Origin: Squalus acanthias
Lineage: Eukaryota
DNA: 64,000 nt
Assembly (NCBI GenBank): GCA_030390025.1
Contig: JASTWF010000502.1
Location: 1-64,000 of the forward strand
Reading direction: 5' to 3'
Positions 20,447 through 56,417 of the stretch are shown one piece after another (the first letter of the stretch is position 1; each line of letters begins with the position of its first letter). The position numbers and the translations under genes were made by a program. The notes beneath the pieces were generated by a model that saw only the letters and a list, made by a program, of their open reading frames with translations, made no database searches and had not been told where the DNA came from.

Positions 20447-20470
20447 ATGTATCCTCAAGGCAGGCACCCG
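20447..20470 (+). CDS. TLE3: TLE/Groucho corepressor coding exon 1 (MYPQGRHP)
   Basis: ATG TAT CCT CAA GGC AGG CAC CCG then GTAAGT donor; identical to the TLE3/TLE2 N-terminus; 24-nt coding part as in human TLE3. Confidence 0.95.
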
Positions 20471-20723
20471 GTAAGTGTGTTCCACTCTCTTTTTAGCTAC
20501 CCTTTTAACTTTGAACAGCGCGAGTTTGTGTGTGTGTGTGTGTGTATTAAAAAAATATATATTATTTAAAACAAACTGCATCAAGAAATGCATTGATTTG
20601 GGGCCGTGTAAACGATTGCTGGCATTAATTGACTGGGTTGGTGTTTGGTGACTGTTCTGTGAGTGTTGTTTTTTTTTCTTCTTCCTCCCCTCCCCTGTTT
20701 TTGAAATTCTGCTGTACTTGCAG

Positions 20724-20821
20724 GCTCCTCACCAACCTGCTCAACCGTTTAAATTCACCGTGGCCGAATCCTGCGATCGAATCAAAGAGGAATTTCAGTT
20801 TTTACAGGCGCAATATCACAG
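20724..20821 (+). CDS. TLE3: TLE coding exon 2, Q domain ([33 protein letters not shown])
   Basis: ttgcag acceptor, AG|gtgggg donor, 98 nt, phase 0 to 2; Groucho Q-domain sequence. Confidence 0.95.
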
Positions 20822-21150
20822 GTGGGGGAACGTGCATCATATTCTGGCTGAGGAGTTTGTTCAGAGAAAGATCAGATCCTGTACAACTGCACAGAACGCC
20901 CCAGTCTCTCTCCCCTTCTACTCACACTTCATTAGATAATAGGCACTGTATTTTAATGATAATATTGAGCAATCAGCTATTTCTGTTTGCCTTTTGTGTA
21001 GGTCGGTGCATTCCATGTAAACAAGCTTTAAATTATTCAGAGCGTGTGATGTAAGCTCATTGTTTGGATAATGTGTTGACACAGTCTCGGTTCCCCGAAC
21101 CCCCTCAAACTGACTTTTCTCTTTTTCTCCCATTCTCCTCTCTCATCCAG

Positions 21151-21214
21151 TTTAAAGATGGAATGTGATAAACTTGCAAACGAGAAAACGGAGATGCAGC
21201 GGCACTATGTTATG
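21151..21214 (+). CDS. TLE3: TLE coding exon 3, Q domain (S-LKMECDKLANEKTEMQRHYVM)
   Basis: Polypyrimidine tract plus ccag acceptor, gtaagt donor, 64 nt; frame continuous with exon 2. Confidence 0.96.
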
Positions 21215-21868
21215 GTAAGTGTGGGCTGGGATCTTCTTGCATTCTAAGTAATTCATATTCACATTTTCCAGTAAATTTGCTTTTTATCATTTAAGAGTAG
21301 ATTAAAAATGTGACGTGATGCAGACATTGACACACACCAACTCGGTTGCTGTCAATCCTGTTGCTAAGTATTATGGCCAAATAATTTCTGGGGATTTTAA
21401 AACCTGTACGGCGAGATGTCATTAAAAGTTAATGTACTTCTTTGTAAATGCATTAAGTTGCAATCTGGTGCTTAATACTAATACGTTAATTTCTTTGTAC
21501 TGGGGTCACACTGATGGTTAATCATTGCTAAAATTCACCACTTTTTCTGAGGAAGGATGCCAATATTTGGATTAATATATCTATCTATCTATGATATATA
21601 AAATGAGTAAACATGGTTGTACACGTGTGGTCTGTGAGCTGGCGATTTATCACTTCCGCCAGCGCAGCTCTGTTTATGAAGAATTTTAAGGTAAAGGCCA
21701 GGCAGTGGGAGACGAGAGTCTTAAACAAATTAGGTGCAAATAAATTAATGGCCTATGCAGAAAAAAATAGTCAAATGGGAAATAACAGGTGGGAAGGATT
21801 TGCAGGGAGACTTTTTTTTAAAACAAATCCCAGAATGTAGATTAACGCGTTTATGACTTTTGTTTCAG

Positions 21869-21913
21869 TATTACGAGATGTCGTATGGGCTGAATATTGA
21901 AATGCATAAACAG
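21869..21913 (+). CDS. TLE3: TLE coding exon 4, Q domain (YYEMSYGLNIEMHKQ)
   Basis: tttcag acceptor, gtaagt donor, 45 nt; invariant Groucho motif. Confidence 0.96.
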
Positions 21914-43333: not shown

Positions 43334-43533
43334 NNNNNNNNNNNNNNNNNNNNNNNNNNNNNNNNNNNNNNNNNNNNNNNNNNNNNNNNNNNNNNNNNNN
43401 NNNNNNNNNNNNNNNNNNNNNNNNNNNNNNNNNNNNNNNNNNNNNNNNNNNNNNNNNNNNNNNNNNNNNNNNNNNNNNNNNNNNNNNNNNNNNNNNNNNN
43501 NNNNNNNNNNNNNNNNNNNNNNNNNNNNNNNNN
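43334..43533. other. Assembly gap (200 N, probably an unsized scaffold join)
   Basis: Run of N with a round length. Confidence 1.
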
Positions 43534-50378: not shown

Positions 50379-51491
50379 CGGTTGCCTGTAGGCGGCGCTC
50401 TCCTGGACGCGGGACACGGGCCGCTGCCTGTAGGTGGCGCTCTCCTGGACGCGGGACCCAGGCCGCTGCCTGTAGGTGGCGCTCTCCTGGACGCGGGCCA
50501 CTGCCTGTAGGCGGCGCTCTCCTGGACGCGGGACCCAAACCGCTGCCTGTAGGTGGCGCTCTCCTGGACACGGGCCGCTCCCTGTAGGCGGCGCTCTCCT
50601 GGACGCGGGACCCAGGCCGCTGCCTGTAGGTGGCGCTCTCCTGGACGCGGGACCCAGGCCTCTGCCTGTAGGTGGCGCTCTCCTGGACGCGGGACCCAGG
50701 CCGCTGCCTGTAGGTGGCGCTCTCCTGGACACGGGCCGCTGCCTGTAGGTGGCGCTCTCCTGGACGCGGGACACGGGCCGCTGCCTGTAGGTGGCGCTCT
50801 CCTGGACGCGGGACCCAGGCCGCTGCCTGTAGGTGGCGCTCTCCTGGACGCGGGACCCAAACCGCTGCCTGTAGGTGGCGCTCTCCTGGACACGGGCCGC
50901 TGCCTGTAGGTGGCGTTCTCCTGGACATGGGCCGCTGCCTGTAGGCGGCGCTCTCCTGGACGCAGGACCCAGGCCGCTCCTGTAGGTGGCGCTCTCCTGG
51001 ACGCGGGACCTGCCTGTAGGTGGCGTTCTCCTGGACATGGGCCGCTGCCTGTAGGCGGCGCTCTCCTGGACGCAGGACCCAGGCCGCTCCCTGTAGGTGG
51101 CGCTCTCCTGGACGCGGGACACGGGCTGCTGCCTGTAGGTGGCGCTCTCCTGGACGCGGGACACGGGCCGCTGCCTGTAGGTGGCGCTCTCCTGGACGCG
51201 GGACACGGGCCGCTGCCTGTAGGTGGCGCTCTCTTGGACGCGGGACCCAGGCCGCTCCCTGTAGGTGGCGCTCTCCTGGACGCGGGACACGGGCCGCTGC
51301 CTGTAGGTGGCGCTCTCCTGGATGCGGGACACGGGCCGCTGCCTGTAGGTGGCGCTCTCCTGGACGCGGGACACGGGCCGCTGCCTGTAGGTGGCGCTCT
51401 CCTGGACGCGGGACCCGGGCCGCTGCCTGTAGGTGGCGCTCTCCTGGACGCGGGACACGGGCCGCTGCCTGTAGGCGGCGCTCTCCTGGAC
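50379..51491. repeat. GC-rich minisatellite, 42-bp unit (35-bp variants), 28 units
   Basis: Unit gccgctgcctgtaggtggcgctctcctggacgcgggacacgg; 28 occurrences of the ctgtagg core counted. Confidence 0.95.
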
Positions 51492-51816
51492 GGTGGGCCC
51501 AGAATGAAAGGTCTTTGAGAAAGAGGGTCGGCGGGGGGAGATGGAGAGATGATTGAAATGGTGCAATTGATGAATGATTTCAATCAACGTTAAGTTATAT
51601 TGAGTGATGGTGTTCATTCTCTCCGAGAAAAAGATCACATAGAATATTTTAGAGTTTGATTTTTCTTTTAAGGGTAAGAGTGTATGTGTTCGGGTTAACT
51701 TGCTTTTAAGGGGTCATTGTGTTTTTTTTAGCGGGGGGTTATTGGGATGCAAACGACGGGAGTTAAGTCTTAATAATTTAACGTCTGAAATCTTTTTTTT
51801 CTTTTTCATTTCCCAG

Positions 51817-51846
51817 CAGCACCACGCTATCTACCCACCTCTCATG
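51817..51846 (+). CDS. TLE3: Candidate alternative 30-nt TLE microexon (QHHAIYPPLM)
   Basis: Long T/C tract plus tcccag acceptor (NAGNAG), ATG|gttagt donor, phase 0-0, no stop codon; lies upstream of exon 7. Inferred from splice signals only. Confidence 0.6.
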
Positions 51847-53134
51847 GTTAGTCCCTCCCTCCTGAACTGTTTTCTGCCTTTTTGTGTCTCTAGCATGCTG
51901 CCCGTGTGACTCGCTGCTTCCGTGCGCCAGATGTGCATGCGCGCAGGTCTGGCCGCTTTCGCTGAAGCCGCAGTATCTTAACGCTACTTGGCGGTGTGGC
52001 TGAGCTTTTAAAGGGACAGCGTTCCTTCCCTCTTCCCCCCACCCCCTCATGTCAGCTGCCTTGGGCTGCAGTAACTGCCAGTGTTTCAGTCCAGGGCTGT
52101 TTCTCTTCAGCTCAGTTGGCTGATCTCGCCCTGGGGGGTCCCTGGACTTGGCTTTAGCACTCTAGTTATATAAGGGCCAATCAACCAGGGTTTCTAGCGA
52201 CCCTTGCAGGATGTGTGTGCGTGTTGCTTTGAGGGATGTAGAAGTCTCGAACAACAGCAACTGGGGTGTGAAGCGCACAAGCGGCTCGAGTGCTGTGCTT
52301 TCAATCGCCTGAGCGACTTCTCTTCCTCCACACCCCGGTTTGATTCTAGGCTTTCTTCCTGTAACGTGCCTCATTTCTAGATCTCCAAAAGTTTTGTCAC
52401 TTCAGTCTAGATCTCTTTGCATCTCTGCTTTTAGTTTGGCCTCAAGGAGGTCGGTCTGTGAGGGGGAGGGGGGGGGCGCCTGGAAATGTATTTTCTTCCT
52501 AGAAGTCACTGTAGCGTTAGCAGAGAATGTTGGCCCAGCTTGCTTTGCTGCCTGTCCAGTTAATAAAGGGCCACTCTCTCTCTGACCTGATTCCGGGGGT
52601 CAGTGGTTCCCTCGAAGGCCGGGCTTGGTATTGAGCCAGGAAATTCCCAGGCCCCATTCCTGGCCTCTGCAGCCTGGTCCGGAGCTGGTCTCAGTTGAGG
52701 TGGTGATGGGGATGCTTCTGTTGACCTTGTCCTCTCCCGTGAGGGGAGTTTTTTAAAAGAAAAAATTGGATGGTTCTTGACTCTCAGTCAAACAGCCTTT
52801 TTTCCCCATGTCTGATATTTTTATAACTTAATAGACAAAGTGTTCAAAGAAAATAAAAAGAACACTTTTTTAATACCCCATGATTTTTCTCCGGGGTTTT
52901 TGCTCTCAGCAGTGTCCTGGAGATTAATCTTCAATTCCTGGAGACTCCAGGGCCGATCCTGAAGGGTTGGCAACCCCAATAGACTAGTGCACAGAGAGGT
53001 GTTTCTGAATAGTGATCAGGAGCACAAATCTAGCTCAACTTCCCAAGTCCGGCGTAACATCCAAACCAGTACTCTGGCTGCGATCACAGCACTTTGGGTT
53101 AATGGCCGTGCCTCGGATTTTATAGATCAGGACA

Positions 53135-53555
53135 TTGGGCTGTTCTCCTCCTTGGAGCAGAGAAGGTTAAGGGGAGATTTGATGGAGCTGTTCAAAATCA
53201 TGAAGGGTTTTGATAGAGTAAATCAGGAGAAACTGTTTCCAGTGGAAGAAGGGTTAGTTACCAGAGGGCACAGATTTAAGGTGATTGGCAAAAGAACCAG
53301 AGGCGACATGAGGAAACACATTATTACGCAGCGAGTTATGATGATCTGGAACGCGCTGCCTGAAAGGGCGGTGGAAGCAGATTCAATAGTAACTTTCAAA
53401 AGGAAATTGGATAAATACTTGAAGGGGAAAAAGTTTCAGGGCTATGGGGAAAGAGCAGGGGGGAGTGGGGACAAAGTGGAGAGCTCTATCAAAGAGCCGG
53501 CACAAGCACAATGGGCCGAACGGCCTCCTTCTGTGCTGTACCATTCTATGATTCC
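53135..53555 (+). mobile_element. CR1 LINE 3' end, second subfamily
   Basis: LEQRRLRGDLMELFKIMKGFDRV...WNALPERAVEA. Confidence 0.85.
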
Positions 53556-54750
53556 CCCAATAGCACATACGAACATACAACATTGACAGACAGGAAAAGA
53601 CCCACTGGTCCATCTACCCCGTCCCATACAGTTCTGATGCCCGGTGCCTCACGTACACGGTTGGGGGGGGGGGGGGGTGGAGAAAGAGCGGAGAGACACA
53701 AAGAGTGACAGATGAAATGCAAGAGAACATCAAAACCTAGTCCTGAACCTTTGTAACCATTTGATATGTCTACATCAAGAGCAGCACCAATGGAATGCTC
53801 AAACAAACCTTGATCTCCAGGCTCTTCCTGCCAGAGTAACCTGCTCACCAGCTTCCAGTGGAAAATTCTAGCAAGGAAGGAAACAAAATCCTATAGCATG
53901 ATACCCGCAAAGCTTGTCCTTATTAAGTCAAAAGATATTTGAACTAATATCGCTTGTGTTGCCTGGAGCGGTGTTGCAATGGATGCCTTGTAGTTGCCTG
54001 AACTTGATGGCTTTTTTAAGCTCGAGCGTATGGCGTCTGTTTTGAATAATTTTTTATTTTTTGCCAAGACATTTTTGGGTCTATCGGTTGTGTGTGTGTG
54101 TGTATATTTTGTTCAAAATTTGAATAATAAGTCTAGTAGTGAGAAGACAGTGTTGGTATCTCTCCAGTTGCTGAGGGTAGCATGTCAACGAACCCCACGC
54201 GGCCTGGGGTTTGACCCCCCGCTGGTCTGCGCTGAGGTAGCGGAGCTTGGCCTGAGGCTGGTACCAGTTGGGATGCTGCACTTGACACATGTGCCCGTTG
54301 GGGCTAGGCAGTGGAGGGGGGGCCAGGGTTCCTGCTCCTGATCACTATAATGCCTGCTGGACAATGCACGTTGGGCTCTACTGTGACCATCTCTCCGCCC
54401 CCCCCCCCCCCACCCCATCACCAGCTAATATCTGGCCAACACTTGCTTTCTAGGCTCCCTCCTTGAAGAATGGCCTCTTGAGCAAGGTACTGAAGGGCAA
54501 CTGAGACCCCTGGGGCCATAGCTCAGCACATAGAGGAGAGGCAGGAAGACCAAGCCTTTTAATGTTGTGTGTTTGTGAGGTTCTTTTGTCGCTTTGTACA
54601 CTTCAGGATTGATTTTTGTCTCTGACCTGCTTAATTAACCTTTTTTGTTTCTGGAATTTTCTCTTCTCTTTAGCAGGGCACTACCAGGATGCCTTTTTTT
54701 TTAAGTTTGTTTTTGCATTTAATGACCTATTTAAAAAGTTACTCATGAGG

Positions 54751-54791
<41 letters not shown>

Positions 54792-54890
54792 TCCCTCTCT
54801 CTCGCTCCTCCGTCACTCTTGCTGCTCCGCTCCATCCGTGCTTCCTGGCCTGATTTCCTTCCAACCCATGTGCCATTGGTTTCTCCACAG

Positions 54891-55095
54891 CAGCAACAAC
54901 TGCAGGCCCAGCACCTCTCCCACACCCACGCTCCTCCTGTCCAGCTGCCGCCCCACCCCTCTGGTCTGCAACCGCCAGGAATCCCCCCGGTCACCGGCAG
55001 CACCTCCGGGCTCCTAGCACTTTCCAGCGCCCTGGGCAGCCAGGCCCACCTGTCGGTGAAGGACGAGAAGAACCACCACGAGTTGGACCACAGAG
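54891..55095 (+). CDS. TLE3: TLE coding exon 7, GP domain ([69 protein letters not shown])
   Basis: ccacag acceptor, G|gtgag donor, 205 nt; closely matches the TLE3 GP domain. Confidence 0.95.
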
Positions 55096-56400
55096 GTGAG
55101 AAGGAGCTTGGACCTCGGTAGATGTTGGATGGCGGGCGGACAAAGGTGTAATTTTTGCAAAGCCTCGCTCGGTGGAAGCAGACCCGTCACAGAATTGACC
55201 CTCTGCTGTTTTAGTCCCACCTCGAACCTGCGCTCCCATCTAGTCAGGGAGCTCGGCCTCCGAAAATAACCCCGACACTGTGTGACTGAGACCGGGTGTT
55301 TGCTGCCCTTGGCAACCGCTCGTTTACTTCCATTTACCAATGTGTTGGAAAACGCCGAGCCGAGAAAAGGCAATTGGACATGATTTCGAAGAGGACGAAT
55401 GTACAAGGTTATGGGGAAAAAGCTGGGGAGTGGGATTCAATTGTTTTTTCAAATTGCTCCGTTAAACAACCGGCACAGGTGCGATGGGCTGAATGGCCCC
55501 CTTCTGTGCAGATTCGATGATTCTAGGGATACAAATCCTGGAGAGAGAAAATGTCAATACTTTCTCATGGGAAGGATACCTATATATTTTTTTTATTCAC
55601 TCTTGGGATGTGGGCATCGCTGGCGAGGCTAGCGTTCATCGCCCATCCCTGGTTGCCCTGAGAAGGTGGGGGGTGAGCCGCCTTCCTTGTCGAAACCGGT
55701 AACGGTTTGACACGACCGATTGGTTTGCTGGGGCGGTTAAGGGTCATGCACGTTGGCGTGGGTCTGGAGTCACGTAGGCACAGACCGGGTAAGGATGGCA
55801 GGTTCCCATCCCTTGTTACAGTTGGGCTTCTCCTGAGACCCCTCGATTTAAATGTCCGCTATTTTGGTAATAATGGGGTTAACCTGCACCAGGGCTAGGG
55901 TTGCCACCCCACCAGGATTGGCCTGGAGTCTCCAGGAATTGAAGATTTAAAAACCCCGCAGAAAAATCATAGGGGCCGTAAAATAAAATTGTTTGTGTTT
56001 CATTTCCTTTGCACAGTTTCACTTATTAGTGATAAAAATATTGGGGGATGGCGGCGGGGGTAGGGAAACTTTCACTGACATTCAAGAAACATCCAATAGA
56101 GTCTGTTCCTTTTCCAATTGGCCGTGGGAAGGGAGCGAGCCTGGAGGATTGACCAATGGCGGGGAGGAACAGCAGGTCATATGAGGAAACATCCAGGAAT
56201 GGACCCAATCAGAGCTGGCAGCCCGAACCATGGCTCCCATTGTATTAGTTGGATTATGTGACAGATGTTTCACTCTTGTTTTCGAGAATTCTAACTGCTG
56301 CTCTTTTATTCCATCCCCCACCCCCCCCCACCCACCGACCGTTCCTCTTCTCCCGCCACCGCCTGACCGCTGATGTCGCCACTCCATCGTGTTTCACCAG

Positions 56401-56417
56401 AGAGAGAATCCAGTGTG
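56401..56417 (+). CDS. TLE3: TLE coding exon 8, 17-nt microexon (ERESSV)
   Basis: caccag acceptor, AGAGAGAATCCAGTGTG, gtaagt donor; continues phase 1 from exon 7 and gives HRERESS as in TLE3. Confidence 0.9.

What the first reader, a model, noticed from the sequence alone, without database searches (positions are those of the whole stretch)
51817..51939. Candidate 30-nt in-frame microexon (QHHAIYPPLM) at the Q/GP domain junction, with downstream RBFOX motifs
Seen: strong pyrimidine tract, CAG/CAG tandem acceptor (30- or 27-nt forms), GTTAGT donor, phase 0-0, no stop codon; GCATG at 51893-51897 and TGCATG at 51934-51939. Established: bony-vertebrate TLE3 has an optional 10-aa insert (VRGLPNLPLT) at this protein position, and downstream (U)GCAUG promotes RBFOX-dependent inclusion in neurons and muscle. 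Inference: this is a same-length but different-sequence tissue-regulated insert.
Basis: partly seen in the sequence, partly recalled or inferred. Interest (0 to 1): 0.7.

Follow-up and report, generated by a model that had tools for sequence, protein, structure and literature searches.

The report
Ancient optional mini-exon in shark TLE3
A 30-base exon of a shark TLE3 co-repressor gene is spliced into transcripts beside a second optional insert and has counterparts in rays, chimaera, bony fish and the sister gene TLE4; it likely descends from an old optional spacer that would tune how strongly the protein represses genes.

Summary
The exon is real. One contig in each of two RNA-type runs from two studies matches exactly 51817-51846 and runs on into exon 7 at 54891.

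It is not a shark substitute for VRGLPNLPLT. That insert is a separate donor extension of exon 6; sharks have it too, and both sit on the same contigs.

The exon is already in RefSeq isoform models of 16 of 18 cartilaginous fishes seen. It has a homologue in 21 teleosts, and none in 123 amniote TLE3 records. Chimaera and turtle TLE4 carry a paralogous exon (QQTIYPTM), so it likely predates the TLE3/TLE4 duplication. Four invertebrate-type groucho contigs have a 30-33-nt exon in the same intron and phase.

The two GCATG motifs are locally unusual and unchanged in close relatives, but RBFOX control and tissue specificity are untested. There is no SRRM4-type UGC, no tle gene is on a zebrafish neural-exon list, and the fly gro 33-nt exon is classed as generally alternative.

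Likely role: a combinatorial spacer at the end of the Q-domain helix that tunes repression, as human TLE4-T does. Ordinary kind, unexpectedly deep history.

The parts
51770..51816 (+). 3' splice region of the microexon: candidate branch-point TAAY motifs at -47, -44 and -39, a long U-rich tract and the first acceptor AG; no UGC closer than -69
   Evidence: sequence; no substitution in 51700-51816 in DNA relatives X12/X13, only three small insertions
51817..51846 (+). 30-nt cassette microexon, phase 0-0, QHHAIYPPLM
   Evidence: translation; exact exon-to-exon contigs in X1 and X5; 10/10 identity to the H. francisci isoform X6 insert
51820..51846 (+). 27-nt form from the second CAG of the tandem acceptor (HHAIYPPLM)
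   Evidence: sequence; present in relatives' RefSeq models, e.g. P0011, P0146, P0341, P0344; not seen in the two contigs laid here
51847..51852 (+). 5' splice donor GTTAGT
   Evidence: contigs leave the DNA exactly after 51846
51893..51897 (+). GCATG, candidate RBFOX site (+47)
   Evidence: unchanged in X12/X13; function inferred
51934..51939 (+). TGCATG, candidate RBFOX site (+88)
   Evidence: unchanged in X12/X13; function inferred
51875..51985 (+). cluster of 9 YGCY motifs (MBNL-type; motif assignment recalled)
   Evidence: 9 against 2.6 expected per 150 nt; 3.5% of windows reach it
54891..55095 (+). TLE3 exon 7 (start of the GP region), with its own tandem CAG acceptor
   Evidence: 97% identity to Heptranchias and Heterodontus TLE3; downstream partner of the microexon
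20447..21913 (+). TLE3 coding exons 1-4 (20447-20470, 20724-20821, 21151-21214, 21869-21913), Q domain residues 1-77
   Evidence: tblastn 100% to shark TLE3 P0005; splice sites
56401..56417 (+). 17-nt TLE3 exon 8
   Evidence: sequence; weak tblastn match to the ERESSV segment

Best explanation
This is a spliced, frame-keeping 30-nt exon in intron 6 of shark TLE3, joined in transcripts to the VRGVPNLPLT donor extension upstream and to exon 7 downstream; it is likely optional here as in relatives, is likely inherited from an exon older than the TLE3/TLE4 duplication, and would act as a spacer that tunes repression strength. Splicing: a strong pyrimidine tract with a tandem CAG acceptor (30 or 27 nt) and a GTTAGT donor define it (shown). 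Two downstream GCAUG sites and a YGCY cluster likely raise inclusion where RBFOX/MBNL proteins are abundant, as a graded boost rather than a neuron-only switch (inferred). Protein: with the donor extension it gives four spacer classes (0, 9-10, 10 or 19-20 residues) between the last Q-domain helix (ELNxIIG) and QQQLQAQHL of the HDAC-binding GP region. The proline-rich inserts are predicted to stop that helix about 11 residues early. This would change how the tetramerising Q domain presents the GP region, and so how strongly targets such as TCF/Wnt genes are repressed (inferred by analogy with human TLE4-T).
For: Junctions: (X1 and X5; two studies, two organism labels); the two DNA-type runs laid go straight through the intron. 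Optional in relatives: RefSeq isoforms with neither, either or both inserts. Spread: 16 of 18 chondrichthyan species seen, including Callorhinchus QHHIIYPPFM; 21 teleost species. Paralogue: 5 of 157 TLE1/4-type records carry TIYPTM, four from Callorhinchus TLE4 and one from turtle TLE4, with the same slot, a variable number of leading Q, an IYP core and a final Met. Same intron and phase in invertebrate-type groucho DNA: L026, L030, L031 and L050 hold stand-alone 30-33-nt exons, two of whose peptides match independent proteins P0545 and P0553 letter for letter. Motif rarity. 0 of 24 differences to relative X12 fall in 51793-51952 (P=0.007 for the finding's span, 0.03 scan-corrected). AlphaFold helix 97-133 without inserts against 97-122 with both. 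A 13-residue intron-6 insert makes human TLE4 a stronger Wnt repressor (PMC2762042, abstract and passages). The GP domain binds HDAC (PMC2997355, PMC2701438, passages).
Against: The skipped form was not seen in this organism; only inclusion contigs were recovered, and contigs drop rare forms. Tissues of the runs are unknown. The conservation test rests on two close relatives from one study that share nearly all differences. The AlphaFold difference lies in a stretch of pLDDT about 50 or lower and compares no insert with both inserts, so it does not isolate this exon. Likeness to the invertebrate exons is weak beyond position, phase, size, a leading Q and a hydrophobic-x-x-hydrophobic-L/M end (7 of 336 decoys match; pattern chosen after the fact). 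Only 1 of 15 complete invertebrate-type introns had the exon, and 0 of 4 such exons have GCATG downstream. 0 of 15 lamprey records carry it. Intron 6 gains unrelated exons often (TLE4-T). No functional test of this peptide exists.
Confidence: 0.62

Rival explanations
1. A strict neuron/muscle switch: RBFOX (possibly with MBNL) turns the exon on only in brain, heart and muscle.
For: Two GCATG at +47 and +88, rare in this gene and unchanged in relatives. YGCY cluster. RNA-type run X6 showed exon 7 but no cover of the microexon bin. Downstream position fits RBFOX activation (recalled). Some neural microexons lack UGC (PMC12871342, passages).
Against: No tle, gro1 or gro2 row among 708 zebrafish neural exons; the control mef2 was found (PMC12626424 supplement; zebrafish itself was not checked for the exon). 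The fly gro 33-nt exon is grouped as generally alternative, not neural or eMIC-dependent (PMC8797185). No UGC near the acceptor. Inclusion was the assembled form in both runs laid narrowly, tissues unknown. A hole in X6 proves nothing.
Confidence: 0.22
2. A tolerant hot spot: the Q/GP junction accepts short in-frame inserts. The TLE3, TLE4 and invertebrate exons arose separately, and the peptide is a near-neutral linker.
For: Many unrelated inserts at this junction: elasmobranch TLE4 HTEKRRFQCWLL, rodent TLE4, snake TLE1 and Chiloscyllium TLE1 inserts, and human TLE4-T, reported absent from mouse. A leading Q and a final L/M can follow from tandem CAG acceptors and a G before the donor. Not found in 123 amniote TLE3 records.
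Against: The H-x-[IVF]-Y-P-x-x-M core is kept from chimaera to teleosts, and TIYPTM is identical in chimaera and turtle TLE4. That indicates selection on the letters, not only on length. The flanks are constrained.
Confidence: 0.14
3. The exon is the chondrichthyan equivalent or replacement of the VRGLPNLPLT insert, or it is not a real exon.
For: Same length and position in the protein. The VRG insert is not found in the window.
Against: Both inserts lie on one contig and in 30 of the 380 records classed. VRG is contiguous with exon 6 in genomic DNA (L079, L080). Its absence from the window follows from exons 5-6 being missing from this assembly stretch.
Confidence: 0.02

Closest known systems
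RefSeq isoforms of chondrichthyan TLE3 (e.g. H. francisci XP_067874285.1, Heptranchias XP_067827405.1, Callorhinchus XP_042198862.1)
   Same: Same exon and peptide, 30/27-nt forms, combined freely with VRGVPNLPLT.
   Different: Nothing in kind. These are automatic gene models; no description of the exon was found in the ten paper searches.
Human TLE4-T exon (PMC2762042)
   Same: In-frame cassette in intron 6 that inserts a short peptide at the C-terminal end of the Q domain; shown there to strengthen Wnt/beta-catenin repression.
   Different: 39 nt, testis-specific, activated by RBMY/hnRNP G-T, reported absent from mouse and more distant lineages. The shark exon is 30/27 nt, in TLE3, and old. 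The sequences were not compared.
VRG[LV]PxLPxT alternative 5' splice-site extension of TLE exon 6
   Same: Optional 10-residue proline-rich insert at the same protein junction.
   Different: A donor shift contiguous with exon 6 (L079/L080), found in TLE1, TLE3, TLE4, lamprey and in one invertebrate-type form. It is additive to the microexon, not homologous.
Drosophila gro exon DmeEX0008098 (33 nt; PMC8797185 table S2)
   Same: Alternative frame-keeping exon in groucho, with two downstream acceptors 6 nt apart; same size as the exons in L030 and L050.
   Different: The table gives no sequence, so its place at the Q/GP junction is inferred. Invertebrate-type exons end in an LxxLL-like run rather than YPxxM.
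SRRM3/4 (eMIC)-dependent neural microexons
   Same: Short, frame-keeping, conserved, long pyrimidine tract, branch-point candidates 39-47 nt upstream.
   Different: No UGC between branch point and acceptor; homologues are not on the neural or eMIC lists checked.

Membership tests
TLE3 gene (Groucho/TLE) | Flanking exons match TLE3 orthologues; TLE_N Q domain | tested here: met
   Exon 7 is 97% identical to shark TLE3; exons 1-4 are 100% identical; PF03920 is on the isoform that carries the insert.
Cassette microexon | At most 30 nt (at most 27 nt by the stricter definition) and frame-keeping | tested here: met
   30 nt, phase 0-0; only the 27-nt form meets the strict limit (definitions in the listing).
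Cassette microexon | Spliced on both sides in transcripts | tested here: met
   Contigs of X1 and X5.
Cassette microexon | Skipped in some transcripts | tested here: inconclusive
   Skipped isoforms in relatives' RefSeq models; no skipping contig seen for this organism.
RBFOX-activated exon | (U)GCAUG in the proximal downstream intron, above background | tested here: met
   +47 and +88; 6 of 4,139 windows.
RBFOX-activated exon | Motifs conserved across species | tested here: inconclusive
   Unchanged in two close relatives from one study; no distant vertebrate intron available; absent beside 4 of 4 invertebrate-type exons.
RBFOX-activated exon | Inclusion falls on RBFOX loss or motif mutation; enriched in neurons, heart and muscle | not testable with these tools
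   Runs carry no tissue labels and are contigs.
SRRM3/4-dependent neural microexon | [quoted passage not shown] | tested here: not met
   Nearest TGC at -69.
SRRM3/4-dependent neural microexon | Neural-enriched, eMIC-dependent inclusion | tested here: inconclusive
   Indirect only: no tle row among 708 zebrafish neural exons; fly gro exon grouped ASE.
VRG[LV]PxLPxT donor extension | Begins with GT and is contiguous with exon 6 | tested here: not met
   The microexon has its own acceptor and begins CAG; the VRG insert is the contiguous one.
TLE4-T-type intron-6 cassette | In-frame cassette between exons 6 and 7 | tested here: met
   for TLE4-T.
TLE4-T-type intron-6 cassette | Testis-specific; raises repression | not testable with these tools
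   Needs tissue RNA and reporter assays.

The most novel reading that the evidence does not exclude
The exon is the surviving vertebrate form of one optional Groucho exon already present in the last common ancestor of bilaterians. It kept its intron, phase and size for over 500 million years, appears as an LxxLL-like helix extension in invertebrates and as a YPxxM helix breaker in jawed vertebrates, was duplicated into TLE3 and TLE4, and was then lost from amniote TLE3. It would be a conserved splice switch on Groucho's tetramer-to-HDAC linker that mammalian work could not see.
Probability: 0.45. Interest if true: 0.62.

Novelty: new member of a known kind. Interest (0 to 1): 0.42.

Why it matters
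Groucho/TLE proteins carry repression for Wnt, Notch and many homeobox factors. The one intron-6 insert with a functional test that my searches found, human TLE4-T, changes repression strength. If fishes keep an old, sequence-conserved cassette at this spot, TLE activity there is tuned by a small combinatorial splice code. That code can be tested directly in teleosts and in the fly gro exon, and it would be invisible in mouse or human TLE3. It also gives a traceable case of one alternative exon kept and lost differently among whole-genome-duplication paralogues. The exon itself is already in automatic annotations, so the interest lies in its history and function, not its existence.

Tried and rejected
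- Own-genome search: no genome is held for this window, so exons 5-6 could not be located. Sensitive tblastn found neither exon, nor the VRG insert, in the window; they likely fall in the N gaps at 30755-31151 or 43334-43533 (inferred).
- Sequencing runs: no holder is on record as RNA; 'RNA?' is the tool's guess. I laid 6 of 15 listed runs.
- The wide lay (X1, X2, X5, X6) was swamped by repeats and listed no 51846-54891 joint among the rows shown. X1, X2 and X5 had depth in the microexon bin and X6 had none (no verdict). X2 also has intronic contigs and stays unresolved.
- Mouse and zebrafish microexon catalogues (PMC7821500 supplements): no row could be assigned to a TLE exon by codon motifs. 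Rows carry transcript ids rather than gene names, the size limit is 30 nt (the teleost exon is 33 nt or more), and one file was too large to read.
- The TLE1 tetramer structure paper was not held. PDB 4OM2/4OM3 cover the region by sequence only.
- The 50%-representative search gave 14 hits and no further vertebrate copies; P0544 is a spurious repeat protein.
- The ESM Atlas gave no usable taxon for the invertebrate-type protein.
- A relaxed exon rule in invertebrate-type introns gave 10 sense against 4 antisense donors in 102 kb. I kept only the 4 hits that start with Q and have GTGAGT donors, and dropped the other 6 as likely chance.
- Earlier findings of the scan: none.
- No complex prediction was run, since a Q-domain tetramer would pass by likeness to solved structures.

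Full report
Setting. The window holds the 5' part of a TLE3 gene of a cartilaginous fish, most likely a shark. Exon 7 (54891-55095) is 97% identical to Heptranchias and Heterodontus TLE3, and exons 1-4 (20447-21913) match shark TLE3 at 100%. Exons 5 and 6 are not in the window.

Observation. Every stated feature is present: the pyrimidine tract, the tandem CAG acceptor, 30 nt reading QHHAIYPPLM, the GTTAGT donor, GCATG at +47 and TGCATG at +88. A rule fitted to the site finds only its two forms in 33 kb of intron. Two GCATG including one TGCATG occur in 6 of 4,139 overlapping 100-nt windows, a count that includes this site, and none is within 150 nt of the six other exons. Nine YGCY motifs follow the donor against 2.6 expected (3.5% of windows). 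The nearest upstream TGC is at -69.

It is spliced. Of 15 runs listed (none on record as RNA) I laid six. On the narrow stretch 51560-52220, one contig in each of X1 (study P1, organism A) and X5 (study P2, organism B) matches exactly 51817-51846 with no mismatch. The 30 loose letters behind are window 54891-54920, the start of exon 7. The 30 loose letters before begin with GT and translate to VRGVPNLPLT. The X5 contig has 596 letters before the exon and 545 after. The two DNA-type runs X12 and X13 run through the intron in one piece, so the joined form was not seen as DNA (0 of 2). In the wide lay, X1, X2 and X5 had depth in that bin and X6 did not; repeats swamped the joint table. No skipping contig was seen, and tissues are unknown.

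It is not a substitute for VRGLPNLPLT. Both inserts are on the same contigs, and RefSeq models list neither, either or both (30 of 380 classed records have both). Two vertebrate genomic contigs show the VRG letters directly after ELNAIIG, beginning GT and followed by a second GT donor (L079, L080), so VRG is an alternative-donor extension of exon 6. Its relatives occur in TLE1, TLE4, lamprey (VRALPNLPL) and an invertebrate-type transcript (L002, P0554).

Spread of the microexon in TLE3. Chondrichthyans: 16 of 18 species seen carry it (the Chiloscyllium pair counted once; not seen in Pristis and Narcine). The forms are QHHAIYPPLM, QHHAFYPPLM in stingrays, a form ending PPLT in carpet sharks, and QHHIIYPPFM in Callorhinchus, with and without the first Q. 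Teleosts: 21 species, mostly labelled 3-B, carry QQQPPHSVYPAFM or variants. Amniote TLE3: 0 of 123 readable records (131 picked by name), and none ranked above the VRG plateau in a search aimed at the insert. These are cluster representatives and sampled members, so the loss is likely but not proven. Gar, coelacanth, lungfish and amphibian TLE3 were not seen.

Paralogues and flanks. 5 of 157 TLE1/4-type records carry TIYPTM: four Callorhinchus TLE4 and one turtle TLE4, and no TLE1. The same slot, variable leading Q, IYP core and final Met make common descent from before the TLE3/TLE4 duplication likely (my estimate 0.85). Lamprey: 0 of 15. Against relative X12, 17 listed substitutions and 7 indels fall in 655 nt, and none in 51793-51952 (P=0.007 for the finding's span, 0.03 scan-corrected). 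X13 is nearly the same comparison and comes from the same study.

Deeper history. Unnamed Groucho proteins of invertebrate type carry a 9-11-residue segment at the same junction (P0545, P0549, P0550, P0553). Among 80 metagenome loci, 66 end exon 6 with a donor right after the same glycine codon. Four hold a stand-alone phase 0-0 exon of 30-33 nt with tandem CAG acceptors and a GTGAGT donor: L031 (QQRPDLPRLL, both neighbours on the contig, identical to the P0553 segment), L030 and L050 (QQQQQGLQQLL, identical to P0545), and L026. Transcript-like contigs exist with such a segment (L004, L005, L007, L008, L013) and without it (L001, L009, L024). Fly gro has a 33-nt alternative exon with two downstream acceptors 6 nt apart (PMC8797185, supplement row); its position at this junction is inferred. 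Against shared descent: only 1 of 15 complete introns had the exon, taxa were not determined, the shared end pattern was chosen after the fact (7 of 336 decoys), and intron 6 gains unrelated exons often. I put bilaterian descent at about 0.45.

How it likely works. Shown: splice sites, inclusion, combination with VRG, conservation. Inferred for splicing: the GCAUG pair and YGCY cluster likely boost inclusion (the role of downstream RBFOX and MBNL motifs is recalled). Signs against a neuron-only SRRM3/4 switch: no UGC (link to SRRM4 in PMC12871342, passages, which also notes neural microexons without UGC); no tle row among 708 zebrafish neural exons with a working control (PMC12626424, supplement); and the fly exon grouped as 'other alternatively spliced'. 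Inferred for the protein: the inserts fall inside the last positions of Pfam TLE_N. AlphaFold ends the last Q helix at 133 without inserts and at 122 with both, at low confidence. The Q domain tetramerises and the GP domain binds HDAC (PMC2701438, PMC2997355, passages). A 13-residue cassette in intron 6 of human TLE4 gives stronger Wnt repression (PMC2762042, abstract and passages). I therefore commit to an optional spacer that tunes repression, at 0.62.

What is known. The exon is already in automatic RefSeq models. Ten full-text searches turned up no description of it in their listings or in the passages and supplements I read. The library lacks most subscription journals, and VastDB was not searchable. 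It works like TLE4-T and other frame-keeping cassette microexons, fails the UGC test for SRRM3/4 targets, and meets only the motif criterion for RBFOX targets.

Verdict. Observation confirmed; interpretation partly supported; a new member of a known kind. Interest 0.42, rising to about 0.6 if the bilaterian-age switch reading holds.

Noticed in passing
window 21914-51816; N gaps 30755-31151 and 43334-43533: TLE3 exons 5 and 6 are missing from this assembly stretch, although transcripts contain the exon-6 extension. A gene model built here would be broken.
   Followed up: partly
window 56401-56417: A second very short exon (17 nt, not a multiple of three). A 17-nt exon of mouse Tle1 is listed as alternatively spliced in PMC8797185 table S2.
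   Followed up: no
window 50383-51492: GC-rich 42-nt tandem repeat, 27.6 copies, ending about 325 nt upstream of the microexon.
   Followed up: no
proteins P0300, P0303, P0396, P0399, P0401, P0408, P0464, P0469, P0481: Shark and ray TLE4 use a different conserved 12-residue cassette (HTEKRRFQCWLL) at the same junction, whereas chimaera and turtle TLE4 use QQTIYPTM. The relation between the two is unknown.
   Followed up: no
proteins P0403, P0409: The chimaera TLE4 microexon has a longer form ending VIS, which looks like its own alternative-donor extension.
   Followed up: no
L002:721-744; P0554: Invertebrate-type groucho transcript with VRTPTSLA after ELNAIIG, suggesting that the donor-extension event may also be older than vertebrates.
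   Followed up: partly
proteins P0017, P0153: Mustelus models add about 30 residues in front of the microexon; no match to them was found in the window.
   Followed up: partly
L029, L036, L038, just upstream of exon 7: Similar open reading (E-[FL]-x-x-x-x-[MV]-L) before the exon-7 acceptor in three invertebrate-type loci; possibly an upstream alternative acceptor.
   Followed up: no
window 52715-53704 and 55355-56179: High-copy repeats (thousands of contigs laid) inside TLE3 introns 6 and 7.
   Followed up: no
window 54891-54893: Exon 7 has its own tandem CAG acceptor; relatives' models differ by one Q here.
   Followed up: partly
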